Positions 30,903-45,700 of a DNA stretch of 64,000 bases are shown piece after piece. The translations under genes were made by a program, and so were the position numbers. The stretch spans positions 372,677 to 436,676 of the forward strand of contig JACKEN010000003.1 of assembly GCA_020632995.1 (NCBI GenBank). Direction: 5' to 3'. How positions within the stretch are numbered: position 1 is the stretch's first letter; every line of letters starts with the position of its first letter. The stretch is from Deltaproteobacteria bacterium. Its GTDB lineage: Bacteria > Myxococcota > Kuafuiibacteriia > Kuafuiibacteriales > Kuafuiibacteriaceae. The notes under the pieces were generated by a model. That model saw nothing but the letters and a program-made list of their open reading frames with translations. It was not told the DNA's origin and made no database searches.

Positions 30903-30930
30903 TTAGAGCATTCAATTAATCAATTGAATC
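30903..30930. promoter_or_regulatory. AT-rich palindrome ATTCAATTAATCAATTGAAT immediately upstream of the ArsR-rhodanese gene, candidate operator
   Basis: Near-perfect inverted repeat in an otherwise 70 % GC genome, about 10 bp before the start codon of the ArsR-family regulator. Confidence 0.4.
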
Positions 30931-32605: not shown

Positions 32606-33730
32606 ATGACGTCGCTTCTCACCGGTCTTCTCACTGGCATGGGGTTCGGCATCCTCCTCTACAAGGTGGGCGCCACCCGGTACTCGCGGATCATGGGGAT
32701 GCTGACCCTCCGCGATACCAAGATCATGAAGTTCGCTTTCACCACCATCGCGGTGGCCTCCATGTTGTATGGGTTGGCGAGCCTCGCGGGCATCGCCAGT
32801 GACTGGAACCTCGAGACGCGCGTCATGCCGTTCATGGGCGGCGCCCACATCCTGGGCGGCATCCTGTTCGGCGCGTCGCTCGGCGTGACCGGGCTCTGCC
32901 CGGGCACCTGCGCCGCCAAGGCGGGCGGGCGCGCGGGCGAGAAGCGCTTCGTGCTCCCCGCCGCCCTCATCGGGCTCGTCCTCGGCGTGGTCATGTACGC
33001 CTGGCTGAAGGAGCCGCTGGTGGACGCGGGCATCGTGGCGCGGCCGCGGCAACTCACCTTGCACGGCTACCTCGGCCTCCCCTACGGCGTGGTGGCGGTC
33101 GTCTTCGGCGCGGTCATCATGACCATCGTCCTCGTCGTGGATCGCTTCACCCCCGAGAAGCGCTACGAGCCGGTGAAGGAGCGCCACTCGATCGTCGACT
33201 GGGTGCGGGGCGAGTGGAGCTTCCTCGCCTCCGGCACCATCGCCGGCCTCTTGATCGTGGGCGCCACCGCGCAGGGCGGGTACCTCGGCTTCTCCGGCTC
33301 CCTCCTCGCGCTGGTGGGCGCGGTGTCCAACGTCATCGGGATCAAGATGGCGGCGGTGCCGGTGGTGAACGACAGCATCCTCTGGCACTCCGGCCTGATC
33401 GTGGGGGCGCTGGTGGGTGGCTTCCTCTCCAGCCTGGTGTCCACGTACTCGAAGGGCTACGTCGGGGTCCCGAAGAAGAAGACCCTCGATCCGAAGGCCA
33501 TCGCCATCACCATGTCCGGCACCGCGATCATGGCGCTGGGCGCGATGGTGGGCGGCGGGTGCACGACCGGGGCCTTCCTCTCCGGCTGGCCGACCCTCTC
33601 GATCGGGAGCTTCGCCATGGCGATCACGTTCTTCGCCACCTCGATGGCGGTCTCGAACCTCCGCCTCCTGGTCGCGCACACCTACGACCTCAACGCCGCC
33701 CAGAAGATCGGCGAGCAGGTCTATGACTGA
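32606..33730 (+). CDS. YeeE/YedE-family sulfur-compound (thiosulfate) transporter
   Basis: Duplicated multi-TM architecture with conserved Cys-containing loops (GLCPGTCAA, GGGCTTGAF). Confidence 0.8.
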   Translation: MTSLLTGLLTGMGFGILLYKVGATRYSRIMGMLTLRDTKIMKFAFTTIAVASMLYGLASLAGIASDWNLETRVMPFMGGAHILGGILFGASLGVTGLCPGTCAAKAGGRAGEKRFVLPAALIGLVLGVVMYAWLKEPLVDAGIVARPRQLTLHGYLGLPYGVVAVVFGAVIMTIVLVVDRFTPEKRYEPVKERHSIVDWVRGEWSFLASGTIAGLLIVGATAQGGYLGFSGSLLALVGAVSNVIGIKMAAVPVVNDSILWHSGLIVGALVGGFLSSLVSTYSKGYVGVPKKKTLDPKAIAITMSGTAIMALGAMVGGGCTTGAFLSGWPTLSIGSFAMAITFFATSMAVSNLRLLVAHTYDLNAAQKIGEQVYD

Positions 33731-33734: not shown

Positions 33735-33865
33735 TGGAGCTGATGATGAGTCGTCAACTGCGGGTCGCCGCAATCATCGCCGTCGTGGTCCTCGCGGTGT
33801 CCTGGATCATGCTCCGACAGCACAACGCACAGGTCGCCGCTCCGGCGGCGGAGGCGCAGCAATGA
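33735..33865 (+). CDS. Small (43 aa) single-TM protein, translationally coupled to downstream rhodanese
   Basis: ATG with hydrophobic core VAAIIAVVVLAVSWIML; stop overlaps next ATG (ATGA). Confidence 0.3.
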
Positions 33866-34326
33866 AGAAGTTCGAGCCCTTCATCTACATCGTCCTCTTC
33901 GTGGTGTTCGGGGGCCTCGTGCTCTCCGAGGGCGCGAAGGCCGCGGCGCTCGATCGGTCCATCGCGCTGACCCCGAAGGAGCTGTACCGCAAGATCGCGA
34001 AGCGGGAAGGTGCCTTGCAGATCGTCGACGTGCGCGAGGACGTCGAGGAGAACTACGAGGACACCCACATCCCCGGCGCCATCCCCTTCCCCAACTGCGA
34101 CATGAAGGAGACGCCGGAGGGTGCGCGCGACCAGGTGGAGCCGTCGGTGCCCACCATCATCGTGTCCGGCGATGGCGATCAGGAGCTGTTCAACAAGTGC
34201 GCGGCGTACTTCACCTCCGCGCGTAACCTGGAGGGTGGGCTCGAGGCCTGGGACGACGAGAACCTCCCCGAGGATAGCGGTGAGTACCAGCCCCCCAAGG
34301 TGGGCGCGGGCGGCGGATGTCTGTGA
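33862..34326 (+). CDS. Membrane-anchored single-domain rhodanese-like protein (active-site Cys not evident)
   Basis: N-terminal TM; rhodanese fold pattern LQIVDVRE...THIPGAIPFP...PTIIVSGDGD. Confidence 0.6.
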   Translation: MKKFEPFIYIVLFVVFGGLVLSEGAKAAALDRSIALTPKELYRKIAKREGALQIVDVREDVEENYEDTHIPGAIPFPNCDMKETPEGARDQVEPSVPTIIVSGDGDQELFNKCAAYFTSARNLEGGLEAWDDENLPEDSGEYQPPKVGAGGGCL

Positions 34327-34336: not shown

Positions 34337-37225
34337 ATGACCATCTCGAGACGCGACGTACTGAAGAACATGGCCGCGGTGAGCGCGGGGGCCGCCGCGG
34401 TCTCCGCCCTGGACGGGCGCGCCCTGGCCAAGGGGCTCCCCAAGCCGGAGCGGCGGGACGATCCCCGCCATCACCCGCCGGCCAAGGAGACGTCGGTCGA
34501 GGCCATGTATCGGGCCGAGTTCGCCGAGACCTTCGGCGACGCGGGCGAGAAGGGCTTCGCGTACCACTGCGTGAACTGCCAGGGGAACTGCGCCTGGCAG
34601 GTCTGGAGCAAGGACGGCAAGGTCACCCGCGAGAACCAGAGCGCGTCCTATCCGCAGATCGCGGACGACATCCCGGACGCGAACCCGCGCGGCTGCAACA
34701 AGGGCGTGCAGCACAGCCAGATCATGTACTCGCAGGACCGCCTGCTCTACCCGATGAAGCGGGTGGGCGAGCGCGGCGAGGGCAAGTGGGCCCGGATCAG
34801 CTGGGACGAGGCCATCTCCACGGTGGCCGAGAAGCTCTACGACACGATGCTCCGGGTGGGCCCGGAGGGGAACTACATCCACGTCGGCGCGGGGATCCTC
34901 ACCGAGGCCAGGGCCGCGTCGGTGAAGCGCCTCGGGGCGCTGTTGGGCGCGGTGCGTCCGTACATCGCCTCCTATGTCGGTGACATGTTCCCTGGCGTCT
35001 CGGTGGTGTACGGCGAGGGCAACATCGGTTGCACCTTCGACTTCATCTACAAGTCGAACGTCGCGGTGTTCTGGGGCTGCAACCCCAACACCTCGCGCAT
35101 CCCGGACGCCCACTACCTGTGGGAGGGCAAGTACAACGGCTGCAAGGTCGTGGTGATCACCCCAGAGTTCAACTCCACCGCGATCCACGCCGACCTGTGG
35201 GTGCCGGTGAAGCCGGGCGGCGACGGCCACCTGGCCATGGCCATCATGAACCGGATCGTGAAGCGGCGGCTCCACAACCCGAAGTTCCTGGCCACCTACA
35301 CCGACCTGCCGCTCCTGGTCCGCGAGGACAACGGCAAGCTCCTCACCCTCCACGACGTGGACGCCGAGGCCCTCGACTCGAAGCTAGTGGAGCTGTTCGG
35401 TGAGGACGAGGCGAAGCACCACGAGGTCTTCCTCGCCTGGGATCAGCGCACCAAGAAGGCGGTGCCGCTGCCCGGCTGCGAGGGGAGCGCGGTGCCGACG
35501 CTGCGCCTGAAGGACAACGCCTGGAACATCTCCCCCGCCCTGAAGGGCACCTACAAGGTGAAGCTCTCGGACGGGAGCATGGTCACCGTGAAGCCGGTGT
35601 ACGAGCGCTTCGAGCAGGAGCTGGCCGCGTTCGCGCCCGAGAAGGTGCAGGCGATCACCGGCGTCCACCCGAAGGTGGTGGACGAGCTGGCGGTCGACCT
35701 CGCCAAGTCGAAGACCGCGGTCATCACCCTCGGCTTCGCGGTGGGCAAGCACTTCAACGGCATGCTCTCGCAGCGCGCGATCTCGACCCTGGCCGCGCTG
35801 TCCGGGAAGCTCGGCCCCAACGGCGGCATCAACTCCGAGAACGAGTGGAACATCACCGGCCTCGGCGGCCTGAGCAGCTTCGATGGGCGCTTCGTGCACC
35901 GCTTCGCGTCCGGCTTCACCTCCGAGTTCATGCTCGGCGATGGCCTGAAGACCTACGACAAGGGCTTCGCGGACGAGGACGTGAGGCGCGCCACCGGGAT
36001 GTCCAAGTCGGACTACAAGTCCCGGGTGGAGCAGATGCTCACCAAGGGGAAGAACGACGACGGCTACAAGGACGGCGGCAAGCCGTACTGGACCACGGTC
36101 GAGACCTTCTTGATGTTCGCGGACTCCCGGTTCCGTCGGAACAAGGGTGAGTACAAGGAGGCCTTCCTCGAGAAGGCCAAGTTCATCGCCTACGGCGACA
36201 TCCGCATGAGCGACTTCGCGCAGTACGCGGACGTGCTCCTGCCCTGCAAGTCGCACTACGAGGTCTGGGACATCCGGACCAACCCCGGCTACCACCGCTT
36301 CGCGAACATCGCGTACCCGCCGCCCCACCTCGAGAACGTGGGTGAGGCGAAGAGCGAGTGGGAGATCTCGACCCTCATCGTGGAGAAGATGGAGGCCCTG
36401 GCCAAGGCGCGCTACGCCAAGACCAAGGACGAGAAGGACATCAAGATCCCGGACGAGACCCACACCCAGGAGGGCTTCCGGCCCATGGGTGAGCTCGTCA
36501 AGGAGTTCACCCAGGACGGGAAGGTGCGCACCGACCGCGAGGCGGTGGAGTACGCGCTCGAGCACGTCGACCAGTTCAAGCCGAACACCATCCAGACGGT
36601 GTACGACCGCGGCGGGTTCCTGCAGCTCAACGACAAGTCCGGCAAGTCGAGTCCGCTCTATGCGGACCGGCCCTACAACACGTTCGAGAGCCAGCTGTAC
36701 TTGTTCCAGCGCTTCGACACCGTCAGCGGGCGGCTCACGTTCTACGTGGACCACCCACTGTGGGTCGAGATGGGGGCGGCGATCGTCACCGCGCGGGAGC
36801 CCATCCGGCCGAAGAAGTACCCGCTGGCCCTAATGACCCCGCACGCGCGGTGGTCGATCCACTCGACGTACAAGACCTCGCCGACCCTGCTGCGTCTGCA
36901 GCGCGGCAAGCCGTACGTCATGATCAACCCCGAGGTGGCGGCGTCCCGCGGCATCGCGGACGGCGACGACGTCCGGATGTTCAACGACCTGGGCGACACC
37001 GTGTTGATGGCGAAGCTGGTGCCCGGCGTGCCGAAGAACGCGGTGGTGATGGAGCACGGCTGGGAGCCCTTCATGTTCCGCGGCCGCAAGGGGCAGAACG
37101 TCCTCGTGGGCGACATGCTCAACTTGCTTGAGCTCAGCGACGGGTGGGGACACCTGAAGTTCGGCACCAACTGGGACGGGAACCAGCACGCCTACGACGC
37201 CACCGTCGAGCTGGCGAAGGTCTGA
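34337..37225 (+). CDS. Tat-exported molybdopterin (Mo-bisPGD) oxidoreductase catalytic alpha subunit, type II (NarG/EbdA/SerA/DdhA-like)
   Basis: Twin-arginine signal MTISRRDVLKNMAAVSAGAAA; FS0 motif AYHCVNCQGNCAW...PRGCNKG aligns with NarG HGVNCTGSCSW...PRGCPRG (His-x3-Cys-x3-Cys); RLLYPMKR matches NarG RLKYPM; about 962 aa. Confidence 0.85.
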   Translation: MTISRRDVLKNMAAVSAGAAAVSALDGRALAKGLPKPERRDDPRHHPPAKETSVEAMYRAEFAETFGDAGEKGFAYHCVNCQGNCAWQVWSKDGKVTRENQSASYPQIADDIPDANPRGCNKGVQHSQIMYSQDRLLYPMKRVGERGEGKWARISWDEAISTVAEKLYDTMLRVGPEGNYIHVGAGILTEARAASVKRLGALLGAVRPYIASYVGDMFPGVSVVYGEGNIGCTFDFIYKSNVAVFWGCNPNTSRIPDAHYLWEGKYNGCKVVVITPEFNSTAIHADLWVPVKPGGDGHLAMAIMNRIVKRRLHNPKFLATYTDLPLLVREDNGKLLTLHDVDAEALDSKLVELFGEDEAKHHEVFLAWDQRTKKAVPLPGCEGSAVPTLRLKDNAWNISPALKGTYKVKLSDGSMVTVKPVYERFEQELAAFAPEKVQAITGVHPKVVDELAVDLAKSKTAVITLGFAVGKHFNGMLSQRAISTLAALSGKLGPNGGINSENEWNITGLGGLSSFDGRFVHRFASGFTSEFMLGDGLKTYDKGFADEDVRRATGMSKSDYKSRVEQMLTKGKNDDGYKDGGKPYWTTVETFLMFADSRFRRNKGEYKEAFLEKAKFIAYGDIRMSDFAQYADVLLPCKSHYEVWDIRTNPGYHRFANIAYPPPHLENVGEAKSEWEISTLIVEKMEALAKARYAKTKDEKDIKIPDETHTQEGFRPMGELVKEFTQDGKVRTDREAVEYALEHVDQFKPNTIQTVYDRGGFLQLNDKSGKSSPLYADRPYNTFESQLYLFQRFDTVSGRLTFYVDHPLWVEMGAAIVTAREPIRPKKYPLALMTPHARWSIHSTYKTSPTLLRLQRGKPYVMINPEVAASRGIADGDDVRMFNDLGDTVLMAKLVPGVPKNAVVMEHGWEPFMFRGRKGQNVLVGDMLNLLELSDGWGHLKFGTNWDGNQHAYDATVELAKV

Positions 37226-37238
37226 GGAGAAGCACTCG

Positions 37239-38288
37239 ATGTCGAAGCGTCAGCTCGCCATGGTCATGGACCTCAACAAGTGCATCGGCTGCCAGACGTG
37301 CACGGTGTCCTGCAAGACGCAGTGGACCAACCGCAACGGCCGGGAGTACATGTACTGGAACAACGTCGAGACGAAGCCCGGCGATGGCTACCCCAAGAAG
37401 TGGGAAGACATGGGCGGCGGGTTCGACGAGCGAGGTCAGCTGAGGGACGGCCACGTGCCCTCACGCTCCTCGGAGTACGGCACGCCCTGGGACTACAACC
37501 TGAACGAGCTCGACTCCGGGAAGCTCCTGGAGGCGCAGCAGAAGCTCCAGGTGGGGCCGAACTGGGACGAGGATCAGGGCAAGGGCGACTTCCCGAACTC
37601 GTACTACTTCTACCTCCCCCGCATCTGTAACCACTGCAGCAACCCGGGTTGCCTGGCCGCCTGCCCCCGCGGGGCGATCTTCAAGCGGGACCAGGACGGC
37701 ATCGTGCTCGTGGATCACGATCGCTGCGAGGGCCTGCGGTATTGCATTGCAGGTTGTCCTTACAAGAAGATCTACTTCAACCCGAAGCTCTTCAAGAGCG
37801 AGAAGTGCATCTTCTGCTTCCCTCGCATCGAGAAAGGGCTCCCGCCCGCGTGCGCCCACCAGTGCGTGGGGCGCATCCGCTTCGTGGGCTACCTCGACGA
37901 CGAGGAGAGCCAGGTCTACAAGCTGGTGCACAAGTACAAGGTCGCGCTGCCGCTCCACGCCGAGTACGGCACCGTGCCCAACGTCTTCTACGTGCCGCCG
38001 CTCCCCGGGCCCCCGAAGTACGACGCGTTCGGCAAGCCCGTGGCGGGCAGCGAGCGCATCCCGCTCGAGTACCTCGAGAGCCTGTTCGGGCCCGACACCA
38101 AGGCCTCCCTCGCGGTGCTCGAGAAGGAGATGGCGAAGCGCAAGGCCGGCAAGACGTCGGAGCTGATGGACATCCTCATCGCCTACAAGCACTCCGACAT
38201 GTTCCGCATCGACGCCCCGAAGCCCACCGCCAGCGTGGGCACCGATCTCATCCAGATCGGCAAGAAGGCAGAGAGGAGCCCGGCGTGA
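37239..38288 (+). CDS. NarH-like iron-sulfur beta subunit of type II molybdoenzyme
   Basis: Block-by-block similarity to NarH: LNKCIGCQTCTVSCK, YWNNVETKPGDGYP, GPNWDEDQG, YLPRICNHCSNPGCLAACP, GIVLVDHDRCEGLRYCIAGCPYKKIYFN, SEKCIFCFPRIE, CVGRIRFVG, VALPLHAEYGTVPNVFYVPPLP. Confidence 0.9.
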   Translation: MSKRQLAMVMDLNKCIGCQTCTVSCKTQWTNRNGREYMYWNNVETKPGDGYPKKWEDMGGGFDERGQLRDGHVPSRSSEYGTPWDYNLNELDSGKLLEAQQKLQVGPNWDEDQGKGDFPNSYYFYLPRICNHCSNPGCLAACPRGAIFKRDQDGIVLVDHDRCEGLRYCIAGCPYKKIYFNPKLFKSEKCIFCFPRIEKGLPPACAHQCVGRIRFVGYLDDEESQVYKLVHKYKVALPLHAEYGTVPNVFYVPPLPGPPKYDAFGKPVAGSERIPLEYLESLFGPDTKASLAVLEKEMAKRKAGKTSELMDILIAYKHSDMFRIDAPKPTASVGTDLIQIGKKAERSPA

Positions 38289-39487
38289 AGGCGCGGCTGA
38301 TGATGGGCGCCGTCCTCGGCGCCGCGATGCTCATGGGCGGGAGCGCCCGGGCCGACGACGCCTACCTTAAGGCGGAGGCGGTGACGGTGACCCGCACCCA
38401 GAAGGTGCCGAAGGATCCGCGGGACGCGGCGTGGGCCAAGGCCCCGGCGGCCCGGGTGATGCTGGGCGCTCAGCGGACGGTGCGCCTCAACGATCGGGAC
38501 GCCAACCCGCACCGGGACGACGCCCAGAAGTTCGCCGAGGTGCAGGCCTACAGCGACGGCAAGACGCTGGCGATGCGGGTCTCGTGGGTCGATCCCACCG
38601 AGGACCGGGCGCTCTACGACGAGACCTCGGTGTTCGGCGACGCGGTGGCGATGGAGATGCCGGCCGCCTTCGGGGCGGAGCACCGCCTGCCCTACGTCGG
38701 CATGGGCGACCCCGACGAGAACGTGGTGGTGTCGATGATCCGCGCCACCACCAGCTACCAGGGCGCGCCGATGTCGCGGCCGCGGACCACGGTGGCGGCG
38801 GGCTTCGGCTCCCTCACCCGGGCCCCGCTGCCGTGGATGGACATGGTCATGTACTACGACCGCAAGCTGCCTGGCTGGCGGGCCACCTTCGTGCGGCCGG
38901 TGACCACCCCCGAGCACGACATCGCGCGCCCCCTGGTGCCGTTCGCGCTCGCGGTTTGGGACGGGGCCGAGAAGCAGCGCGGCGGCAACAAGTCGCTGTC
39001 CCGCTGGAAGGTGCTGCACGACGCCCAGGCCAAGGCGGAGCCCGCGTACCTCGAGAAGCTGGCCTACGGGTACGGCGCGCAGGCCACCGGTGATGCGGCC
39101 AAGGGCAAGGCGCTCGCCACCGCGGTGTGCATCGCCTGCCACCGCTTCGCGGAGTACCAGGTGGCGCCGCCCGAGCTCGCGCCGGAGCTGACCAACGTCG
39201 GCGTCATCACCAACCCGACGTATCTGCGCGACTCCATCAAGGAGCCGAGCCAGATCATCGTGCCGGTGCTGAACCTCAACCGCCACTACTCCAAGTCGAA
39301 GGAGCGGGACCGGTACGGCGCCTACCAGAACGACGACACCTACCAGTGGTTCTCCATCGACGCCGCGGGCAAGCGGGTGTCCCGCATGCCGAGCTTCGCG
39401 GGCTTCAGCCCCGAGCAGATCGCGGATCTGGTGGCGTTCCTGCAGACCCTCGGTACCCAGCCTGCCCCGAAGAAGGAAGGTCAGTGA
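38285..39487 (+). CDS. Gamma subunit: EbdC/SerC-type heme-b domain fused to a C-terminal cytochrome c domain
   Basis: GTG start overlapping beta stop (GTGA); signal peptide; N-terminal about 250 aa of type-II heme-b-subunit size; C-terminal CIACH (CxxCH) with downstream Met-rich cytochrome c-like region. Confidence 0.7.
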   Translation: MKARLMMGAVLGAAMLMGGSARADDAYLKAEAVTVTRTQKVPKDPRDAAWAKAPAARVMLGAQRTVRLNDRDANPHRDDAQKFAEVQAYSDGKTLAMRVSWVDPTEDRALYDETSVFGDAVAMEMPAAFGAEHRLPYVGMGDPDENVVVSMIRATTSYQGAPMSRPRTTVAAGFGSLTRAPLPWMDMVMYYDRKLPGWRATFVRPVTTPEHDIARPLVPFALAVWDGAEKQRGGNKSLSRWKVLHDAQAKAEPAYLEKLAYGYGAQATGDAAKGKALATAVCIACHRFAEYQVAPPELAPELTNVGVITNPTYLRDSIKEPSQIIVPVLNLNRHYSKSKERDRYGAYQNDDTYQWFSIDAAGKRVSRMPSFAGFSPEQIADLVAFLQTLGTQPAPKKEGQ

Positions 39488-39488
39488 C

Positions 39489-39899
39489 ATGAAGCGCAGC
39501 GTGTTGATGCTCGGTGTGTTGAGCGCCGCTCTCTGGGCGGCCCCCGCCTCGGCCCAGGAGAAGGGCGACGACGTGGAGGTGACCTCCGGCTCGGTGACCG
39601 GGCTCTCCTGCGCCCTCGAGGCCCAGAAGACCGGCCACCTGGAGCTGCTGGCCGCGTGCCCGCTCCAGGAGGCGGTGAAGGAGATCGTGATCTTCGACGT
39701 GGCGGAGCGCGCGATCTATCGGCTCCAGGGCGTCACGGTGGCCATGTACGAGCTCGAGATGGCCTACGGCGGCGGCTCCATCGACATGGAGGGCGTCGTC
39801 ACCAAGGTCGACAAGAAGACCGGCGTGGCCACGGTGAAGGTGGCAGAGTACTCCATCACCAAGAAGCCGAAGGCGGGCGGGTTCAAGGGCTGCCTGTGA
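39489..39899 (+). CDS. Small periplasmic protein of unknown function in molybdoenzyme operon
   Basis: Signal peptide MKRSVLMLGVLSAALWAAPASA; 136 aa; stop overlaps next GTG start. Confidence 0.5.
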   Translation: MKRSVLMLGVLSAALWAAPASAQEKGDDVEVTSGSVTGLSCALEAQKTGHLELLAACPLQEAVKEIVIFDVAERAIYRLQGVTVAMYELEMAYGGGSIDMEGVVTKVDKKTGVATVKVAEYSITKKPKAGGFKGCL

Positions 39900-40789
39900 A
39901 GGACCTGATCCAGATCGGCGCCGGGGTGCAGGCGGGCAAGCCCGACCTCCGCTTCGGCACCAGCGCCGCCCCCAACGATCGCGCCGGCTTCGCTCGCGCG
40001 GTGGTGGCGGTGACGTCTGGAAAGGGCGGGGTGGGCAAGTCCACCGTGGCGGTCAACCTGGCGGTGGGCTGCGCGCAACGCGGCTTGCGGGTGGGCCTGT
40101 TGGACGCGGACGTCTACGGGCCCAGCGTGCCCCGCATGCTGTCGCTCCACGGCGAGCGCCTCGAGTGGAGCGACGACGACAAGATGATCCCGGCCGAGAA
40201 CTTCGGGGTCAAGCTCGTGAGCACCGCCCTCACCACCCCCGAGCTCGACACGCCGCTCGCGTGGCGCTCCTCGGTGGCCACCAGCGCGCTGGTGCAGCTC
40301 ATCGAGGACGTGGACTGGGGTGAGCTCGACATCCTCTTCGTCGACATGCCGCCGGGCACCGGCGACGTGCAGATCACCGTGGTCCAGGAGGTGAAGCTCA
40401 CCTACGCGGTGGTGGTCACGACCCCGCAGACGGTGGCCACCGACGACGTGGCGCGGGCGATCCGCATGCTGGCCGACGTGGGTGTGCCCGCCGGCCTGGT
40501 CGAGAACATGAGCTTCTTTCGGGCCCCGGACACCGGGGCCATCTACCATCCCTTTGGCGAGGGCGGCGGTCGAGGCCTGGCGGAGCGCTATCAGCTGCCG
40601 CTGCTGGGCACCCTGGCCCTGGCACCTTCGGTCATGACGCGGGCAGACGAAGGTCTGCCTGCGGTGGCCGGTGGCGCGCCCGAGGACCAGGCGCCGTGGC
40701 AGGCGCTGGTCGATCACCTCCTCAAGCAACCTTCTCTGCTCGAGCGGCTCCCACCGGGGACCGCAACAACCCATCAGGAGAACATATGA
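39896..40789 (+). CDS. apbC: Mrp/NBP35/ApbC-family Fe-S cluster carrier ATPase
   Basis: Walker A SGKGGVGKST; conserved CxxC-type region and Mrp signature blocks; GTG start overlapping upstream stop; stop overlaps cytochrome c ATG. Confidence 0.8.
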   Translation: MKDLIQIGAGVQAGKPDLRFGTSAAPNDRAGFARAVVAVTSGKGGVGKSTVAVNLAVGCAQRGLRVGLLDADVYGPSVPRMLSLHGERLEWSDDDKMIPAENFGVKLVSTALTTPELDTPLAWRSSVATSALVQLIEDVDWGELDILFVDMPPGTGDVQITVVQEVKLTYAVVVTTPQTVATDDVARAIRMLADVGVPAGLVENMSFFRAPDTGAIYHPFGEGGGRGLAERYQLPLLGTLALAPSVMTRADEGLPAVAGGAPEDQAPWQALVDHLLKQPSLLERLPPGTATTHQENI

Positions 40790-41166
40790 AGAAGACCATC
40801 CTTATCGTGCTCGGAGCCCTCTTTGTCGCCAACGCCGCCGTGGCCGCCCCCAAGGCCAAGGCGCCCAAACCCACCAAGGAGCTGCTCGAGAAGGGCAAGG
40901 CCACCTTCACCGTGAACTGCGTGGCCTGCCACGGCGAGAAGGGCGACGGGACGGGCCCCGCGGCGGTGGCGCTCGACCCCAAGCCGCGAAACTTCTCGAC
41001 CGACCAGTTCAAGAACGGGGACAAGCCCGACCAGGTGTTCAAGACGATCTCCGAGGGGCTCGCGGGGACGCCGATGGTGGCGTATGGTCACCTCTCCGAG
41101 GAGGAGCGGTGGGGGCTGGTGTACTACGTCCTCGAGTTCCACAAGAAGGCCGGCAAGAAGAAGTAG
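40786..41166 (+). CDS. Monoheme class I cytochrome c
   Basis: Signal peptide; CVACH heme-binding motif; distal Met (GTPMVAYG). Confidence 0.75.
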   Translation: MKKTILIVLGALFVANAAVAAPKAKAPKPTKELLEKGKATFTVNCVACHGEKGDGTGPAAVALDPKPRNFSTDQFKNGDKPDQVFKTISEGLAGTPMVAYGHLSEEERWGLVYYVLEFHKKAGKKK

Positions 41167-41211: not shown

Positions 41212-41847
41212 ATGAGGCTTGGATTTCTCGTGGACCTGGACCTCTGCATGGGCTGCAAGGCCTGTGAGGTCGCGTGCAAGGCGGAGAACAACGTGCCCGT
41301 CGGGGCGTGGCGCTTGCGCGTGAAGTATGTGGACACCGGGACCTATCCCGACGCCAAGCGCGCATTCACACCCATGCGCTGCAACCAGTGTGACAACGCC
41401 CCCTGCGAGCGGGCCTGCCCGGTGGGGGCGTTGCACTACCTCGACAACGGCATCGTCGACGTCGACAAGGACCGTTGCATCGGCTGCGCCGCGTGCATGA
41501 TGGCTTGCCCATACGGCGCCCTCTACATGGACCCCGAGACCAACACCGCCGACAAGTGCACCTTCTGCGCGCACCGGGTCGAGGGCGGCCTCGAGCCGGC
41601 CTGTGTGGTCGCCTGCCCGGTGGAGGCGAACATCTTCGGTGACCTGGACGATCCGCGCAGCAGGATCAGCCAGTACATCATGGCCCACAACGACTCGCGG
41701 GTGAGGAAGCCCGAGAAGGGCACCGTGCCGAAGCACTACTACACCGGTGGCGGCGCGGTGCACCTCGACCCCCTGGCCTCACGCCGGGAGCCGGGCTTCA
41801 ACCTCTTCAACCGCATCGGCACGCTGGACAAGATCGGGGGGCACTAG
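41212..41847 (+). CDS. 4x[4Fe-4S] ferredoxin subunit (TtrB/PsrB/NrfC-like)
   Basis: Four Cys clusters (CMGCKACEVAC, CNQCDNAPCERACP, CIGCAACMMACP, CTFCAHRVEGGLEPACVVACP). Confidence 0.8.
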   Translation: MRLGFLVDLDLCMGCKACEVACKAENNVPVGAWRLRVKYVDTGTYPDAKRAFTPMRCNQCDNAPCERACPVGALHYLDNGIVDVDKDRCIGCAACMMACPYGALYMDPETNTADKCTFCAHRVEGGLEPACVVACPVEANIFGDLDDPRSRISQYIMAHNDSRVRKPEKGTVPKHYYTGGGAVHLDPLASRREPGFNLFNRIGTLDKIGGH

Positions 41848-42711
41848 ATGAACTCTGCTGTCGTCACCCTGGACGTCCTGCACTCCGGAGTCATCTGGGG
41901 CTGGTACGTCACCATGAACTTCTGGGCCAAGAGCATCGCCACCGGCGTGATCCTCCTGGCGCCCTGGCTCCTGAAGCGCTCCGAGAACCCGCAGCTGCGC
42001 TTCCTCACCGCGGGGGTGGGCTTCGTCTTCTTGAACATCACACTGCTGTTCACCGTGTTGGACCTGCACCAGCCCTTCAGGTTCTGGCACATGTTCGTGC
42101 ACCCGCACTTCACGAGCGTCATCAACATCGGGGCGTGGATCCTCACCGCCCTGAACGGCCTGTTGGTGCTCCACCTGTTCATGGCGTGGCGCAAGCGCGA
42201 CGCGCTCTACGACAAGCTCCTGCCGGTGACCTGGTTCGTGGCCTTCCTCGCCACGATCTACACCGCGGGCCTGCTCGGGCAGGCGAACGCGCGTGAGATC
42301 TGGCAGGCGCCGGCCGAGGTGGCCCAGATGATCCTGGCCGCCACCCTCTCGGGCAGCGCGGTGTTCCTGCTCATCGGGGGCGGCGACGCAGAGATCAAGC
42401 GGCACCTCGGCACCGTCCTCGGGGTCTCCGCCCTCGTGGCGCTGAGCATCTTCCTCGCGGAGATCTTCCTCGCCCCCCAGAAGTCCGAGGAGGCCGAGTA
42501 CCTGATCCACATCCTGGTCTCGGGTCAGCTCAGCGGGCTGTTCCTGGGCGGTCTGGTGGTGGGCTTCGTGGCGCCGGCGGTGCTCGCCTATGTCGGGGTT
42601 CGCAAGAACCAGGCAGGGCTCCTTGCGCTGGCCAGCGTGATGGGCCTGGTCGGCCTGTGGCTGGTGAAGCACGCGTGGCTCATCGCGCCCCAGCTCATCC
42701 CCCTCAGCTGA
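41848..42711 (+). CDS. NrfD/PsrC-family integral membrane quinol-interacting anchor (TtrC-like)
   Basis: Eight predicted TM helices; NrfD-like pattern; ATG one base after the B-subunit stop. Confidence 0.8.
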   Translation: MNSAVVTLDVLHSGVIWGWYVTMNFWAKSIATGVILLAPWLLKRSENPQLRFLTAGVGFVFLNITLLFTVLDLHQPFRFWHMFVHPHFTSVINIGAWILTALNGLLVLHLFMAWRKRDALYDKLLPVTWFVAFLATIYTAGLLGQANAREIWQAPAEVAQMILAATLSGSAVFLLIGGGDAEIKRHLGTVLGVSALVALSIFLAEIFLAPQKSEEAEYLIHILVSGQLSGLFLGGLVVGFVAPAVLAYVGVRKNQAGLLALASVMGLVGLWLVKHAWLIAPQLIPLS

Positions 42712-42730: not shown

Positions 42731-45700
42731 ATGGCGACCCATCGACGAACCTTCCTCAAGGCAGCCACCATCTCCACCGGCGCCGCAGCGGCGCTGGTGG
42801 GCTCGATCCGGTCCTTCATCCCCAAGGCCCGGGCCGGTGAGTCCGTGGCGACCAAGTACGACAAGCTCCCCGTGGTGAACGGGAACCTGGAGCGCTACCC
42901 GCCGTTCGAGAAGTGGAACGGTTGGCGCGAGATGGACGGTGACGACTGGAAGCGTGGCGGCATCCTGCGCCACGACGTGAAGGTCAACGACTACATGTTG
43001 GTCCCGACCGTCTGCAACAACTGCGAGGCGGTGTGCGGCCTGACCGCGTGGGTCGACAAGGAGACCCTCACCGTCCGGAAGTACATGGGCAACCCGCTCC
43101 ACACCGGGAGCCAGGGTCGCAACTGCGCCAAGGGCTACGCGGTGCTCACGCAGATGTACGATCCCGACCGGATCCCGTTCCCGCTCAAGCGGGCCCCCGG
43201 GACCAAGCGCGGCGACGGCAAGTGGGTGCGCACCACCTGGGACGAGGCCATGGCCACCATCGGTGGCAAGATGCGCGAGGCCCTCTCCAAGGGCGATGAG
43301 TTCACCAAGAAGTCCATCATGCACCACGTGGGCCGGCCCAACGAGTCCGGGTTCACGCCGCGGGTGTGGGCGAGCCTGGGGCAGGACTTCCAGAACAGCC
43401 ACACCAACATCTGCTCCGCGAGCGGGCGCTTCGGGAGCCTGTTGTGGGCGAACGACGACCGCAGCTCCTCGGACTGGTCCAACGCGCGGCTGATCTTCCT
43501 GATCTCCTCCCACGCGGCGGACGCGGGCCACTACTTCCAGCAGTCGGCGCGGCAGATCGCCGAGGCGCGCAAGAAGGGCGCCAAGCTGGTGGTGCTCGAC
43601 CCGCGCCTGTCCAACTCCGCCGGCATGGCGGATCTGTGGATCCCGTGCTGGCCCGGGAGCGAGGCGGCAATCCAGCTTGCCATCGCTGGGCGGCTGATCA
43701 AGGAGCGCCGCTACAACCGTGAGTTCGTCCGCCGGTGGTGGAACTGGCAGGACTTCATGGCGTCCAAGGACACCCACCAGCTCCTCCTCGAGCAGGGCTT
43801 CATCACCAAGCTGCCCGCGGGTGAGGGCTTCGAGGCCTTCGAGGCCTTCATGGAGGACATGTACGGCGCCTACACCCTCGAGTGGGCGGCGGAGCAGGCG
43901 CGGGTCCCGCTCTCCAAGCTCGAGACGCTGTACGAGTACTTCCTGTACGCGGGCGACCGCGTGGCGAGCTTCCACTGGCGGGCGACCGCGGCGGGGAACC
44001 GGGGCGGCTGGATGTCGTCGTCCCGCACCGGCATCTTCCTGATCAGCCTCCTCGGTAACTACAGCGGCGTCGGCGCGCTGGGCTACCACCACGGGCGCGA
44101 GATCGCGGTGGCGGGAAAGGGCGGCAAGAGCACGGTGGGCGAGAAGCCGCCGAAGGTGGACGAGTGGAACGACCTGTCGTGGCCGCCGGAGTGGCCGCTC
44201 GCCTCTTATGAGCTGAGCTTCCTGTTGCCGCACCTGTTGACCGACACCGACTGGCAGCAGAAGTGGCGCGACAAGGGGCTCACCGTGCCCTCCAAGATCC
44301 CGGTGTACTTCCCGCGGATGTACAACCCGGTGTGGATCAACCCGGACGGCTTCCGGTGGATCGAGGTGCTGCGGGACGAGTCCAAGATCGAGCTCGCGAT
44401 CAACCCGTCGCCGATCTGGTCCGAGACCAACTGGTTCATGGACTACATCCTCCCCACCGGCCTGTCGGGGGAGCGGCACGACCAGCACTCCGAGCCCACC
44501 AACACCGAGGCCTGGGTGGCGTTCCGTCAACCTGTCTTGCGCGCGGCGCTCGAGAAGATGGGCTGGGAGCCCAAGGACCCGGCGCGGGCCACGTTGGAGG
44601 CCCACATGAAGGCGGGCCTGGGTGAGATCTGGGAGGAGAACGAGTTCTTCATCAACCTCCTGTTCCACCACGTGGATCCGGACGGCGCCCTCGGGATCCG
44701 GCAGTACTGGGAGAGCCGGGCCCGCCCCGGCAACCCGGTGACGATCGCCGAGTACTATGACGCCGCCTTCGGCACTCTGCCCGGCCTGACCAAGGCCGCG
44801 AAGGAGGCCGCGGCCAAGAAGGCGAAGGACGCCAAGACGCCGGAGGAGAAGAAGCTCGCGGCGTTCGCGGCCCAGCACCCCTGCTACGACATGATGCGGG
44901 ACCGGGGCGCCTGGACCGAGCACGTCGACGTCTTCAACCAGTACGAGGAGGAGCTCGAGGTCGACGAGGCCCGCGGCGTGGTGAAGACGAAGGCGATGGA
45001 CGTCTTCGGCGGCGCCGTCGAGTACCCGATCAAGAGCGTCAAGACGGACCCGAAGACCCAGCAGCTCTACGTCGAGACGCCCGAGGGGCGCCACAACGTC
45101 GGCGTGGTGGGCGAGCGCGGGGGCTGGGAGGTCGGCTTCCCCACCCCGAGCCGCAAGATGGACTTCTTCGCCGGCTGGATGAAGGACTGGGGTTGGCCGG
45201 AGTACACCATCCCGATCTACCCGCGCACCAAGGCCCAGATGGACAAGATGATCCACCTGGTCTCCCACGTGCACCATCAGTACATGACGGAGGAGAACGC
45301 GTTCGCCCTGAACCCGATCTTCCGCCTCTCGTACAACATCCACACCCGCGGCGTGAACTCGAAGTGGCTGCAGGAGATCAGCCAGAACCACGCGCCCCTG
45401 TGGATCAGCATGCAAGACGCCCGGCGGATGGGCCTCGGTCGCGGTGACCCGGTCAAGGTGCGGGTGGTCGACACGCTCTCCGGCAAGGAGTCGGGCTACT
45501 TCGTGGCCATGGCGATGCCCACCGAGGGCATGGCGCCCGGGGTGCTGTCCTGCAGCCACCACGCCGGCCGGTGGCGCGTGGTGGACAAGGTCGACATCTC
45601 GGGCTTCGAGCAGCCGCTCCACATCATGCGGGCCGGCAGCCCGCAGGCGGAGCTGAAGGAGGAGGGCTCGACGCAACGCAGCCTGCGCTACACGAAGGGC

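What the first reader, a model, noticed from the sequence alone, without database searches (positions are those of the whole stretch)
34337..41166. Periplasmic type-II (NarGH-like) molybdoenzyme with unusual accessory set
The alpha subunit carries a Tat signal and the His-x3-Cys-x3-Cys FS0 motif. The beta subunit aligns block-for-block with NarH. Together these place the enzyme in the type-II Mo-bisPGD group, with EbdABC, SerABC, ClrABC, DdhABC and pNar. In known systems the operon is alpha-beta-(delta)-gamma with a NarJ-like chaperone. Here the order is alpha-beta-gamma, followed by a small periplasmic protein, an Mrp/ApbC Fe-S carrier and a monoheme cytochrome c. All six are translationally coupled (GTGA/ATGA overlaps). 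No delta chaperone lies inside the unit. The nearest TorD-like gene is 5 kb downstream, after a second molybdoenzyme. The substrate cannot be read from sequence. The sulfur-trafficking neighbours (rhodaneses, YeeE) argue against a plain nitrate reductase.
Basis: partly seen in the sequence, partly recalled or inferred. Interest (0 to 1): 0.85.

Follow-up and report, generated by a model that had tools for sequence, protein, structure and literature searches.

The report
Sulfur-linked periplasmic molybdoenzyme with cysteine-arm carriers
This is an uncharacterised branch of the nitrate-reductase-like molybdenum enzymes, found in four bacterial phyla, that always travels with sulfur-transfer proteins and a small protein ending in an invariant cysteine "arm", so it is probably an undescribed way of oxidising inorganic sulfur outside the cytoplasm rather than a nitrate reductase.

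Summary
The six genes are real and sit where stated. Alpha has a Tat signal, H77-x3-C81-x3-C85...C120 and the Mo-ligand Asp216. Beta passes the curated type-II cut-off. Corrections: only 3 of 5 junctions overlap, gamma is a heme-b/cytochrome-c fusion, and the "Mrp" lacks the CxxC Fe-S ligands.

The unit is the core of a 15-gene same-strand array (30935-47762). Synteny in 80 species genomes gives a conserved module of periplasmic rhodanese(s), YeeE, alpha-beta-gamma and the 136-aa protein. The "missing" delta chaperone is the TorD-like gene at the array's end. In Campylobacterota, TorD and a NapF-like ferredoxin follow the 136-aa gene directly.

The most distinctive feature was missed. The 136-aa protein (OB-like fold, no family) ends in an invariant ...FKGCL-COOH in 67/67 loci. 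The upstream membrane-anchored rhodanese-like protein ends in ...GGGGCL-COOH in 64/64. These penultimate-Cys arms resemble DsrC and SoxY.

Alpha forms its own clade (bootstrap 100), about 34% identical to PcrA and far from NarG. In Anaeromyxobacter-type relatives the cluster abuts SQR, a sulfite-oxidase-type enzyme and a caa3 oxidase.

Best reading: a cytochrome-c-linked sulfur dehydrogenase fed by a periplasmic cysteine-arm relay. Substrate and direction are inferred, not shown. I found no published description.

The parts
30910..30929 (.). Perfect palindrome ATTCAATT-AATC-AATTGAAT, 5 nt upstream of the regulator's ATG. Candidate operator.
   Evidence: unique in the window, 0.01 expected by chance. 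Not conserved at sequence level in the other loci.
30935..31651 (+). ArsR-type HTH fused to a rhodanese domain (CRGPYC). Putative sulfane-sulfur-responsive regulator.
   Evidence: Pfam HTH_5/HTH_20 plus Rhodanese. Present in about 20 Myxococcota loci and in the 43% sister clade L082.
31648..32589 (+). Periplasmic two-domain rhodanese. It has a Sec signal ...TAQA/ADE and a catalytic loop YCHVGLGR.
   Evidence: Pfam Rhodanese, two stretches. Sequence. Syntenic in nearly all 80 loci, including Campylobacterota.
32606..33730 (+). YeeE/YedE-family (Sulf_transp) membrane transporter.
   Evidence: PF04143. Syntenic in Myxococcota, Bdellovibrionota and Aquificota loci and in L082.
33862..34326 (+). 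Rhodanese-like protein of 154 aa with an N-terminal membrane anchor or signal. The canonical catalytic Cys is replaced (IIVSGDG). The C-terminus ...GGGCL-COOH is invariant.
   Evidence: PF00581. 64/64 homologs end in GGGCL, mostly GGGGCL. Alignment.
34337..37225 (+). Alpha subunit, 962 aa. It has a Tat signal, FS0 ligands H77/C78, C81, C85 and C120, and the Mo-ligand Asp216.
   Evidence: TIGR03479 781 bits. PcrA 401 bits, EbdA 326 bits, NarG 175 bits. Invariant columns. Clade bootstrap 100.
37239..38288 (+). Beta subunit, 349 aa, with four Cys groups (3x[4Fe-4S] plus [3Fe-4S] pattern).
   Evidence: TIGR03478 516.8 bits, above the cut-off of 480.7. Sequence.
38285..39487 (+). Gamma subunit, 400 aa: Sec signal, EB_dh heme-b domain and a fused C-terminal monoheme cytochrome c (CIACH).
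   Evidence: PF09459 plus PF00034. TIGR03477 89.8 bits. CxxCH in 71/71 homologs. Weak alignment to NxrC and EbdC.
39489..39899 (+). Periplasmic protein of 136 aa (p136): Sec signal ...ASA/QE, OB-like barrel, two invariant core Cys (C41, C57) and a flexible arm ending in the invariant ...FKGCL-COOH.
39896..40789 (+). Mrp/NBP35-like P-loop ATPase lacking the CxxC Fe-S ligands. It has only one Cys.
   Evidence: PF10609 275 bits. ApbC and MrpORP scores are below their cut-offs. 37/37 homologs lack CxxC. Its position and strand vary between loci.
40786..41166 (+). Periplasmic monoheme cytochrome c (CVACH), 126 aa. Likely redox partner.
   Evidence: PF00034 and PF13442. Present only in the Anaeromyxobacteraceae-type subset. 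There it is followed by SCO1 and caa3 oxidase genes.
41212..41847 (+). Four-cluster ferredoxin subunit of the second enzyme (TtrB/PsrB-like).
   Evidence: PF13247. TtrB HMM 194 bits, below its cut-off of 416.
41848..42711 (+). NrfD/PsrC-type quinone-interacting membrane anchor.
   Evidence: PF03916.
42731..46081 (+). Second Mo/W-bisPGD catalytic subunit (alpha2), 1116 aa. It has a Tat signal, C-x2-C-x3-C FS0 and a Cys ligand (..NICSAS..). Psr/Phs/Arr-like, but it reaches no equivalog cut-off.
   Evidence: Conserved after the 136-aa gene in Myxococcaceae, Archangiaceae and Aquificota.
46081..46686 (+). TorD/NarJ-family chaperone, the 'delta'. Its ATG overlaps the alpha2 stop (TGATG).
   Evidence: PF02613. 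Junction. Directly follows the 136-aa gene in Campylobacterota.
46683..47762 (+). Cytoplasmic poly-[4Fe-4S] ferredoxin (NapF-like), always paired with the TorD-like gene.
   Evidence: Pfam Fer4 families. Synteny.

Best explanation
The finding is the catalytic core of a conserved periplasmic sulfur module. Alpha-beta (Tat-exported) and gamma (Sec-exported) form a type-II Mo-bisPGD dehydrogenase. I propose that it runs oxidatively.

Proposed mechanism:
1. A periplasmic two-domain rhodanese mobilises sulfane sulfur from thiosulfate or polysulfide.
2. The sulfur passes as a persulfide to the penultimate Cys of flexible C-terminal arms. One arm is on the membrane-anchored rhodanese-like protein (..GGGCL). 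The other is on the OB-fold 136-aa protein (..FKGCL).
3. The arm of the 136-aa protein presents the sulfur in the alpha substrate funnel.
4. The Mo centre oxygenates it towards the sulfonate or sulfite level.
5. Electrons leave via FS0-FS4, heme b and the fused cytochrome c. Where encoded, they go on to the soluble cytochrome c and a caa3-type oxidase.

Supporting roles:
- YeeE and the ArsR-rhodanese regulator import and sense sulfur to control the array.
- TorD, the NapF-like ferredoxin and the Cys-less Mrp-like ATPase mature the enzyme.
- The Psr-like FeS-NrfD-alpha2 enzyme is an optional quinone-linked partner.

Shown here: family membership, gene anatomy, export signals, invariant arms, synteny and neighbourhoods.

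Inferred: the substrate, the oxidative direction, and that the arm carries the substrate.

My estimates:
- About 0.6 that the module is dissimilatory sulfur oxidation feeding cytochrome c.
- About 0.35 that the substrate is carrier-bound sulfane sulfur.
For: Family:
- Type-II HMMs and motifs are present.
- Alpha forms a distinct clade, bootstrap 100. It is sister to canonical alpha-beta-delta-gamma enzymes and separate from PcrA.

Sulfur link:
- Rhodanese, YeeE, rhodanese-like, alpha-beta-gamma and p136 are syntenic in Myxococcota, Bdellovibrionota and Aquificota. Rhodanese plus alpha-beta-gamma-p136 are syntenic in Campylobacterota.
- Sister clades at 38-43% identity keep the sulfur context. 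L082 has an ArsR-rhodanese, a p136-like protein ending ..SCL, rhodanese and YeeE. L083 has SoxY (GGCGG), SoxZ, rhodanese, Lactamase_B and DUF302. L084 has DsrE and rhodanese.
- The next clade out (L085) has none of these genes.

Arms:
- FKGCL-COOH occurs in 67/67 loci and GGGCL-COOH in 64/64, although the rest of these proteins falls to about 22-45% identity.
- The AF2 model shows a folded OB-like barrel with a low-confidence C-terminal tail.
- DsrC's strictly conserved penultimate Cys on a flexible C-terminus is persulfurated and presents sulfur to DsrAB (PMC3397948).

Direction:
- In 12-13 Anaeromyxobacteraceae-type loci, SCO1, a COX2-cytochrome c fusion and COX1 follow the cytochrome c gene directly.
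- A Tat-exported sulfite-oxidase-family enzyme lies nearby in 12 loci. SQR-like flavoproteins or DsrE lie nearby in some.
- A heme b/cytochrome c chain is too high in potential to reduce sulfur compounds other than tetrathionate (established redox potentials; inference).
- The one cultured carrier identified, Sulfurihydrogenibium yellowstonense SS-5 (L046), was described as a sulfur-oxidising bacterium (title cited in PMC3665934).

Regulation and import:
- YeeE-like SoxT proteins import sulfur and signal to ArsR-type repressors in sulfur oxidisers (PMC11582611).
Against: - There is no experimental datum for any member, and no literature was found.
- The closest solved relative is a reductase (PcrA).
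- Ser-, Clr- and Pcr-type reductases also take electrons from cytochrome c, so the electron chain alone does not fix the direction.
- In the window itself no oxidase, SQR or SorA gene is adjacent. Instead a Psr/Phs-like, typically reductive, enzyme follows.
- The SorA-like neighbour would fit either a sulfite-producing or a non-sulfite function for alpha-beta-gamma.
- Arm-into-funnel docking could not be modelled.
- The arm-less relatives (L083, L084) show that the OB protein can function without the Cys.
- The tree is neighbour-joining, with only one experimentally characterised anchor.
Confidence: 0.45

Rival explanations
1. It is a dehydrogenase for a free small sulfur anion, most simply sulfite to sulfate, the sulfur analogue of nitrite to nitrate or selenite/selenate. 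Rhodanese would split thiosulfate into sulfite plus sulfane. Alpha-beta-gamma would oxidise the sulfite. The Cys-arm proteins would only carry away the sulfane by-product, to YeeE for import or to the Psr-like alpha2 for reduction.
For: - Oxo-transfer to an oxyanion is the commonest type-II chemistry (family knowledge).
- The periplasmic rhodanese has an intact catalytic loop.
- A Psr/Phs-like quinone-linked enzyme is conserved next to the core in two phyla.
- The neighbourhood evidence is the same as for the main explanation.
Against: - A dedicated SorA-type sulfite dehydrogenase lies beside the cluster in 12 loci, which would make alpha-beta-gamma redundant.
- p136 is universal and always immediately after gamma, even in Campylobacterota loci that lack YeeE, alpha2 and the rhodanese-like carrier. 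This fits a subunit or substrate carrier better than a by-product sink.
Confidence: 0.2
2. It is a respiratory reductase for a high-potential oxyanion (selenate, chlorate, perchlorate or nitrate-like). Electrons would come from cytochrome c, as in SerABC, ClrABC or PcrAB. The rhodaneses, Cys-arm proteins and YeeE would handle reactive selenium or sulfur products.
For: - The best solved match is perchlorate reductase PcrA (401 bits).
- The sister clades are auto-annotated as chlorate reductase or DMS dehydrogenase.
- YedE-family and rhodanese proteins have been linked to selenium handling (my own knowledge, not tested).
- From memory, carrier genera such as Sulfurospirillum and Sulfurihydrogenibium include selenate and arsenate respirers.
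Against: - Identity to PcrA is only about 34%, and the PcrA gate residues F164/Y165 align with I210/A211.
- No chlorite dismutase or PcrC-type multiheme gene lies in the island.
- Relatives are physically linked to caa3 oxidase, SQR, SorA-like, DsrE and SoxYZ genes.
- The regulator is an ArsR-rhodanese fusion.
Confidence: 0.12
3. It is a dehydrogenase or hydroxylase for an organic (sulfur) compound, such as a DMS dehydrogenase-like or EBDH-like enzyme.
For: - The EbdA and EbdB HMMs are the second-best NCBIfam hits.
- JGI names for neighbouring clades say 'dimethylsulfide dehydrogenase'.
- DdhABC also donates electrons to a c-type cytochrome (family knowledge).
Against: - The conserved partners are inorganic-sulfur proteins: rhodaneses, YeeE, and SoxYZ, DsrE, SQR and SorA-like genes in relatives.
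- No catabolic genes for organics lie in the array.
- Many carriers are chemolithoautotrophic Aquificota and Campylobacterota.
Confidence: 0.05
4. It is an ordinary periplasmic nitrate reductase (pNar), or a nitrite oxidoreductase, that happens to sit next to unrelated genes.
For: General NarGH-like architecture with a Tat signal.
Against: - The narG HMM gives 221 bits in four fragments, against a cut-off of 1084. NarG in the PDB scores 175 bits and NxrA 93 bits, against PcrA at 401 bits.
- The accessory genes are syntenic across four phyla, so they are not chance neighbours.
Confidence: 0.02

Closest known systems
Perchlorate reductase PcrAB (Azospira suillum, PDB 4ydd), and the Ser/Clr/Ddh/Ebd group of type-II Mo-bisPGD enzymes
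   Same: - Tat-exported alpha with His/Cys-ligated FS0 and an Asp Mo ligand.
- NarH-like four-cluster beta.
- EB_dh-type heme-b gamma.
- A TorD-family chaperone.
- Cytochrome c as redox partner.
   Different: - About 34% identity to PcrA, in a separate clade with bootstrap 100.
- Alpha scores below the TIGR03479 cut-off.
- Gamma is fused to a cytochrome c.
- There is an obligatory fourth gene, p136 with a Cys arm.
- The operon is embedded in rhodanese and YeeE genes.
- The chaperone sits at the far end of the array, with a NapF-like ferredoxin.
SoxCD acting on SoxYZ (periplasmic sulfane dehydrogenase and its carrier)
   Same: - A periplasmic molybdoenzyme wired to c-type heme.
- It is paired with a small carrier whose Gly-rich C-terminal arm bears the reactive Cys. 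SoxY ends GGCGG, as seen in L083.
- It oxidises carrier-bound sulfane. This is the proposed functional analogy.
   Different: - SoxC is a sulfite-oxidase-family enzyme, not Mo-bisPGD.
- SoxY has a different fold from the OB-like p136.
- No SoxB-type hydrolase lies in the array.
- The analogy is inferred, not tested.
DsrC / TusE with DsrAB and the DsrEFH relay
   Same: - A strictly conserved penultimate Cys on a flexible C-terminal arm.
- The Cys is loaded by a sulfurtransferase relay, and the arm inserts into the partner enzyme (PMC3397948).
- Here two proteins end in ..GCL.
   Different: - DsrC is cytoplasmic and has a different fold.
- Its partner is a siroheme sulfite reductase.
- p136 has only one arm Cys.
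Polysulfide reductase PsrABC with the periplasmic rhodanese-like Sud protein (Wolinella)
   Same: - A periplasmic rhodanese-type sulfur carrier serves a periplasmic Mo-bisPGD enzyme.
- The window also encodes a Psr-like FeS-NrfD-alpha2 enzyme.
   Different: - Psr is a type-I/III Cys-ligated quinol-linked reductase.
- Sud carries sulfur on its canonical active-site Cys (my knowledge).
- Here the canonical Cys of the 154-aa protein is replaced, and a C-terminal arm Cys is conserved instead.

Membership tests
Type-II Mo-bisPGD enzymes (Nar/Ebd/Ser/Clr/Ddh/Pcr group) | Alpha with N-terminal FS0 ligated by H-x3-C-x3-C...C | tested here: met
   H77, C81, C85 and C120 are invariant in 14 homologs. 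They align with the PcrA motif. An extra invariant C78 is present.
Type-II Mo-bisPGD enzymes (Nar/Ebd/Ser/Clr/Ddh/Pcr group) | Aspartate as the protein ligand of Mo | tested here: met
   D216 (..YVGDMFPG..) aligns with the GD of PcrA (..WYGDHPTG..) and is conserved in all clades compared. This rests on alignment only.
Type-II Mo-bisPGD enzymes (Nar/Ebd/Ser/Clr/Ddh/Pcr group) | Curated HMM cut-offs for alpha, beta and gamma (TIGR03479, TIGR03478, TIGR03477) | tested here: inconclusive
   Beta scores 516.8 bits, above 480.7. Alpha scores 781.1, below 984.75. Gamma scores 89.8, below 169.85, although Pfam EB_dh scores 45, above 33.3. It is a divergent member.
Type-II Mo-bisPGD enzymes (Nar/Ebd/Ser/Clr/Ddh/Pcr group) | Dedicated TorD/NarJ-family delta chaperone in the operon | tested here: met
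   PF02613 gene at 46081-46686, in the same co-directional array. It is adjacent to the 136-aa gene in Campylobacterota.
Respiratory or periplasmic nitrate reductase (NarG/pNarG) | narG equivalog HMM, or close similarity to NarG | tested here: not met
   TIGR01580 gives 220.9 bits in 4 fragments, against a cut-off of 1084. PDB NarG scores 175 bits, against PcrA at 401 bits. No curated archaeal pNarG sequence was available for the tree.
Perchlorate/chlorate reductase systems | Close identity to PcrA or ClrA, aromatic gate residues, and a chlorite dismutase or PcrC multiheme gene nearby | tested here: not met
   About 34% identity, in a separate clade. PcrA F164/Y165 align with I210/A211. No cld or multiheme gene lies in the island.
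Mrp/ApbC/NBP35 Fe-S cluster carriers | Deviant Walker A P-loop | tested here: met
   GKGGVGKS is present, and PF10609 scores 275 bits.
Mrp/ApbC/NBP35 Fe-S cluster carriers | C-terminal CxxC motif that ligates the bridging [4Fe-4S] cluster | tested here: not met
   The window protein reads ENMSFFRAPDTGAIYH; most homologs read ENMSxFxAPDTGxxY[HRD]. No CxxC occurs in 37/37 homologs, and several have no Cys at all. The ApbC and MrpORP equivalog cut-offs are not reached.
C-terminal-arm sulfur carriers (SoxY, DsrC/TusE) | Invariant Cys at or next to the C-terminus, on a flexible Gly-rich arm | tested here: met
   ..FKGCL occurs in 67/67 loci and ..GGGCL in 64/64. The tail has low pLDDT.
C-terminal-arm sulfur carriers (SoxY, DsrC/TusE) | Homology or shared fold with SoxY or DsrC | tested here: not met
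C-terminal-arm sulfur carriers (SoxY, DsrC/TusE) | Covalent persulfide or thiosulfonate on the arm Cys | not testable with these tools
   This needs mass spectrometry of the native or in-vitro-loaded protein.
Catalytic rhodanese sulfurtransferases | Active-site Cys in the loop after the central beta-strand | tested here: met
   This row concerns the 313-aa periplasmic rhodanese (31648-32589), whose catalytic loop reads ..SYCHVGLGR... The 154-aa rhodanese-like protein is tested in the next row.
Catalytic rhodanese sulfurtransferases | Active-site Cys in the 154-aa rhodanese-like protein (33862-34326) | tested here: not met
   The position reads IIVSGDG. It is not a Cys in the 64-sequence consensus or in the sequences shown.
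Psr/Phs/Ttr-type quinone-linked reductases (for alpha2, 42731-46081) | Cys Mo ligand, C-x2-C-x3-C FS0, FeS subunit and NrfD anchor, plus equivalog HMMs | tested here: inconclusive
   The Cys aligns with the Cys of the PsrA ..SLCTAP.. segment, which I take (from memory) to be the Mo ligand, Cys173. NrfD and FeS subunits are present. PhsA scores 124 bits against a cut-off of 694, and TtrA 62 against 1750.

The most novel reading that the evidence does not exclude
A Mo-bisPGD (type-II) enzyme whose substrate is not a free small molecule. Instead it is sulfane sulfur held on the penultimate cysteine of a dedicated periplasmic carrier arm. That would make it a Sox- and Dsr-independent periplasmic route from zero-valent sulfur to the sulfite or sulfonate level, present in Myxococcota, Bdellovibrionota, Aquificota and Campylobacterota.
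Probability: 0.3. Interest if true: 0.9.

Novelty: new variant of a known kind. Interest (0 to 1): 0.75.

Why it matters
- How bacteria without SoxCD, rDsr or sHdr oxidise zero-valent sulfur is a long-standing gap. A periplasmic, cytochrome-c-coupled molybdoenzyme fed by a cysteine-arm relay would fill part of it. It would also add sulfur to the substrate range of the Nar/Ebd/Ser family.
- The module occurs in at least 80 species-level genomes examined, out of 349 confirmed pattern-matched stretches. They include abundant hot-spring Aquificota, cave and groundwater Campylobacterota, and soil and freshwater Myxococcota. These genes are currently annotated as 'DMSO reductase type II', 'chlorate reductase' or 'DMS dehydrogenase', so sulfur-cycle budgets and metagenome annotation may be affected.
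- The invariant FKGCL and GGGGCL tails give a simple sequence marker and a direct experimental handle.
- At least one cultured carrier exists: Sulfurihydrogenibium yellowstonense SS-5.

Tried and rejected
- **Literature.** Seven full-text searches combined type-II DMSO reductase, rhodanese, YeeE, Sulfurihydrogenibium, Persephonella, Anaeromyxobacter, Sulfurospirillum, ethylbenzene dehydrogenase and SerA. None found a description of this cluster. The metallopterin ergothioneine synthase paper (PMC9516567) is a different, cytoplasmic system.
- **Naming reference clades.** Cluster-member look-ups returned only automatic names such as 'DMS dehydrogenase/complex iron-sulfur molybdoenzyme' and 'chlorate reductase subunit alpha'. 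SerA, ClrA, DdhA, EbdA and pNarG could therefore not be placed as labelled tips. PcrA, rebuilt from the PDB alignment, is the only experimental anchor in the tree.
- **p136 profile search.** It reached only 52 proteins, all named 'hypothetical'.
- **RNA and terminators.** Rfam and tRNA scans of the window were empty. The terminator and promoter scan showed no excess, so it neither proves nor disproves one transcript.
- **Palindrome.** The palindrome before the regulator gene is not conserved in the other loci.
- **Ideas rejected.**
  - The C-terminal CL as a CaaX-like lipidation signal. The Rce1-like gene 6 kb upstream is not syntenic with the cluster, and the proteins are periplasmic.
  - GG-CL as a ThiS/MoaD-type tail. 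Its activation would need ATP in the periplasm.
  - alpha2 as a cofactor-less Qrc/ACIII-type scaffold. It keeps the FS0 motif and the Cys ligand.

Full report

ORF listing, junction inspection and HMM scans confirm six co-directional genes at the stated coordinates:
- alpha, 34337-37225, 962 aa
- beta, 37239-38288, 349 aa
- gamma, 38285-39487, 400 aa
- a 136-aa gene, 39489-39899
- an Mrp-like gene, 39896-40789
- a monoheme cytochrome c, 40786-41166

The identical alpha protein and the same gene calls occur in a public MAG, GCA_020430745.1.

Alpha starts with MTISRRDVLK, a Tat motif. It carries H77-C78-x2-C81-x3-C85 and C120, all invariant in 14 homologs. Asp216 in ..YVGDMFPG.. aligns with the GD of PcrA (..WYGDHPTG..).

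Beta passes the curated type-II beta model (TIGR03478, 516.8 bits against a cut-off of 480.7). It has the four NarH-type Cys groups.

Several details in the finding need correcting:
- Only three of the five junctions are 4-nt overlaps. Alpha/beta is separated by 13 nt and gamma/136-aa by 1 nt.
- Gamma is a fusion of an EB_dh heme-b domain and a CxxCH cytochrome c domain. All 71 complete homologs share this fusion.
- Alpha falls short of the TIGR03479 cut-off (781 against 985 bits).

**2. What surrounds it?**

A GC3-filtered gene map and Pfam scans show that the six genes are the middle of a 15-gene + strand array, 30935-47762. In order:
- ArsR-HTH/rhodanese regulator
- Sec-exported two-domain rhodanese
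- YeeE/YedE transporter
- a 154-aa membrane-anchored rhodanese-like protein
- alpha, beta, gamma, the 136-aa protein (p136), the Mrp-like ATPase and cytochrome c
- a TtrB-like FeS protein, an NrfD anchor and a second Tat-exported molybdoenzyme (alpha2, 1116 aa)
- a TorD-like chaperone, whose ATG overlaps the alpha2 stop
- a NapF-like poly-ferredoxin

The largest gap in the array is 131 nt, and no excess of terminator-like sites is seen.

Alpha2 keeps a C-x2-C-x3-C FS0 motif. Its Cys aligns with the Cys of the ..SLCTAP.. segment of the Thermus Psr/'thiosulfate reductase' structure 2vpw, which I take from memory to be the Mo ligand (Cys173), and with a Cys in ArrA. It is therefore a genuine Psr/Phs/Arr-type enzyme, although it reaches no equivalog cut-off.

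**3. Comparative genomics**

A pattern scan of one genome per GTDB species gave 349 confirmed stretches that encode relatives. The best 80 were fetched:
- Myxococcota, including Anaeromyxobacteraceae, Myxococcaceae and Archangiaceae (65-75% identity)
- Bdellovibrionota
- Aquificota of the family Hydrogenothermaceae (about 60%), including the isolate Sulfurihydrogenibium yellowstonense SS-5
- Campylobacterota (about 51%)

tblastn synteny shows a conserved core: rhodanese, YeeE, rhodanese-like, alpha, beta, gamma, p136.

The Mrp and cytochrome c genes are variable:
- Mrp lies on the + strand after p136 in 17 loci. It lies on the opposite strand in 20 loci and is absent elsewhere.
- Cytochrome c is found only in the Anaeromyxobacteraceae-type subset.

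In Myxococcaceae, Archangiaceae and all Aquificota, p136 is followed directly by FeS-NrfD-alpha2-TorD-ferredoxin.

In Campylobacterota the unit is Mrp (divergent), rhodanese, alpha, beta, gamma, p136, TorD, ferredoxin. It has no second enzyme and sits among dnaA-dnaN-gyrB housekeeping genes.

The TorD-like gene and the ferredoxin therefore belong to the type-II enzyme.

**4. The overlooked feature: two cysteine arms**

p136 has a Sec signal and no Pfam or NCBIfam family. An ORF ending in ...FKGCL-COOH follows gamma immediately in 66 of 67 loci with enough downstream DNA. The 67th was found by direct ORF inspection.

The tail is invariant even though the rest of the protein falls to about 22% identity.

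The 154-aa rhodanese-like protein ends in ...GGGCL-COOH in 64 of 64 homologs (mostly GGGGCL). Its canonical catalytic Cys position is not a Cys (IIVSGDG in the window).

A profile search found 52 relatives, all named 'hypothetical protein'.

A strictly conserved penultimate Cys on a flexible C-terminus is the hallmark of DsrC. There it is persulfurated by DsrEFH and presents sulfur to DsrAB (PMC3397948). SoxY uses a GGCGG tail, as seen in L083.

That two unrelated periplasmic folds share ..GCL-COOH suggests that one partner site serves both arms.

**5. Placement of alpha**

- Against solved structures: PcrA 401 bits, EbdA 326, NarG 175 and NxrA 93.
- Against NCBIfam: the type-II alpha model scores 781 bits, EbdA 351 and narG 221.
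- Against 1.84 billion representatives clustered at 50% identity, the nearest clusters are 54%, 43%, 41% and 38% identical.

A neighbour-joining tree on 763 trimmed columns, with 100 bootstraps, gives these supports:

| Grouping | Bootstrap |
|---|---|
| The family alone | 100 |
| Family + P0150 + P0153 + P0155 | 100 |
| The above + P0151 + P0154 | 100 |
| PcrA + P0164 (placed elsewhere in the tree) | 97 |

Contexts of the sister clades mark the boundary of the sulfur association:
- P0151 (L082): ArsR-rhodanese, a p136-like protein ending ..SCL, rhodanese and YeeE.
- P0153 (L083): SoxY, SoxZ, cytochromes c, Lactamase_B, DUF302 and rhodanese, then alpha-beta-gamma(cytochrome c) and an arm-less p136 homolog.
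- P0155 (L084): DUF302, DsrE, Lactamase_B and rhodanese, with an FS0-less alpha and an arm-less p136 homolog.
- P0154 (L085): a canonical alpha-beta-delta-gamma operon with none of these genes.

The enzyme is thus a distinct, sulfur-associated sub-branch next to Ser/Clr/Ddh-like enzymes. It is not a pNar.

Caveats: the tree is neighbour-joining, PcrA is the only experimentally characterised tip, and cluster names were uninformative.

**6. Direction and substrate (inference)**

In Anaeromyxobacter-type loci the cytochrome c gene is followed by SCO1/SenC, a COX2-cytochrome c fusion, COX1 and COX3. Upstream lie a DsrE-like gene, a Tat-exported sulfite-oxidase-family enzyme and SQR-like flavoproteins.

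tblastn finds the SCO1-COX2-COX1 set in 12-13 loci and the SorA-like enzyme in 12.

A heme-b/cytochrome-c chain operates at a potential too high to reduce sulfur species other than tetrathionate. If the substrate is sulfur, the enzyme must therefore act as a dehydrogenase.

S. yellowstonense was described as a sulfur-oxidising bacterium (title cited in PMC3665934). That paper also notes the abundance of rhodaneses in Sulfurihydrogenibium populations.

YeeE-like SoxT proteins import sulfur and signal to ArsR-type repressors in a sulfur oxidiser (PMC11582611). This matches the regulator/transporter pair here.

I therefore propose a periplasmic rhodanese-to-arm relay that feeds sulfane sulfur to alpha-beta-gamma, with electrons passing to cytochrome c and an oxidase. 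The free-sulfite variant and the oxyanion-reductase variant remain open (see the rival explanations).

**7. The Mrp-like protein**

It has the P-loop and a strong PF10609 match. However, the window protein and all 36 homologs lack the CxxC motif: most read ENMSxFxAPDTGxxY[HRD] where carriers have C-x-x-C, and several contain no cysteine at all.

It cannot be a canonical ApbC/NBP35 scaffold. Its recurrent but loosely positioned association in Myxococcota and Campylobacterota suggests a maturation ATPase of unknown action.

**8. Novelty and verdict**

Seven cluster-directed literature searches found no description of this cluster. Database names are generic or probably wrong.

The enzyme class is known and the carrier-arm principle is known. 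What appears undescribed is their combination in the periplasm:
- the universal fourth gene
- the gamma/cytochrome-c fusion
- the Cys-less Mrp

I rate it a new variant of a known kind, of high interest. Function remains an inference, testable with a cultured carrier.

Noticed in passing
window 41212-46081: A second, uncharacterised Psr/Phs/Arr-like molybdoenzyme in B-C-A order (FeS, NrfD, 1116-aa Tat alpha with a Cys ligand). It is 54-58% identical between Myxococcota and Aquificota and is always inserted between the 136-aa gene and TorD. It reaches no PhsA, TtrA or ArrA cut-off.
   Followed up: partly
window 39896-40789, and 36 homologs in L002-L081: The Mrp/NBP35-like ATPase has lost both cysteines of the Fe-S-binding CxxC motif (the window protein reads ENMSFFRAPDTGAIYH). 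Some homologs contain no Cys at all.
   Followed up: yes
window 30910-30929: An AT-rich perfect palindrome, ATTCAATT-AATC-AATTGAAT, lies 5 nt before the ArsR-rhodanese start codon in a 70% GC genome. It is a candidate operator, but it is not conserved in the other loci.
   Followed up: partly
L083 10001-15465; L084 8001-10851: Low-GC sister clades. In L083, alpha has lost the FS0 ligands. In L084, alpha lacks the whole FS0 domain and has no beta or gamma. Both are followed by an arm-less, Cys-rich p136 homolog. They sit beside SoxYZ, DUF302, Lactamase_B and MOSC (L083) or DUF302, DsrE and Lactamase_B (L084).
   Followed up: partly
window 34565-34591 (alpha residues 77-85): The FS0 motif is HCVNCQGNC. 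The extra invariant Cys78 next to His77 occurs only in this family and the P0150, P0151 and P0154 clades. Which of His77 or Cys78 ligates the cluster is open.
   Followed up: partly
window 22022-22680, with a GC dip at about 20-24 kb: An IS66-family remnant (IS66 Orf2/TnpB-like, 116 aa, plus a neighbouring 104-aa ORF) lies in a region of lower GC (0.67).
   Followed up: no
window 23798-30714: A Rce1-like CPBP intramembrane protease, a 378-aa protein with no Pfam family, and a 1588-aa bacterial alpha-2-macroglobulin on the minus strand lie immediately upstream of the sulfur array. The same arrangement occurs in L001. It is not syntenic with the cluster elsewhere.
   Followed up: no
window 3757-13396: Two giant secreted-type proteins on the minus strand: a 1391-aa NHL-repeat protein and a 1583-aa PKD/REJ-domain protein.
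   Followed up: no
window 34211-39490, minus strand: Long antisense ORFs of 380-456 aa overlap alpha, beta and gamma. They are artefacts of 70% GC: GC3 and frame statistics favour the + strand genes.
   Followed up: yes
L029 and L020, about 16.7-21 kb and 0.8-6.3 kb: In Anaeromyxobacter-type MAGs the cluster is flanked on one side by a caa3-type oxidase operon with SCO1. On the other side lie DsrE-like, SorA-like and SQR-like genes. Together they form a compact sulfur-oxidation and respiration island.
   Followed up: yes
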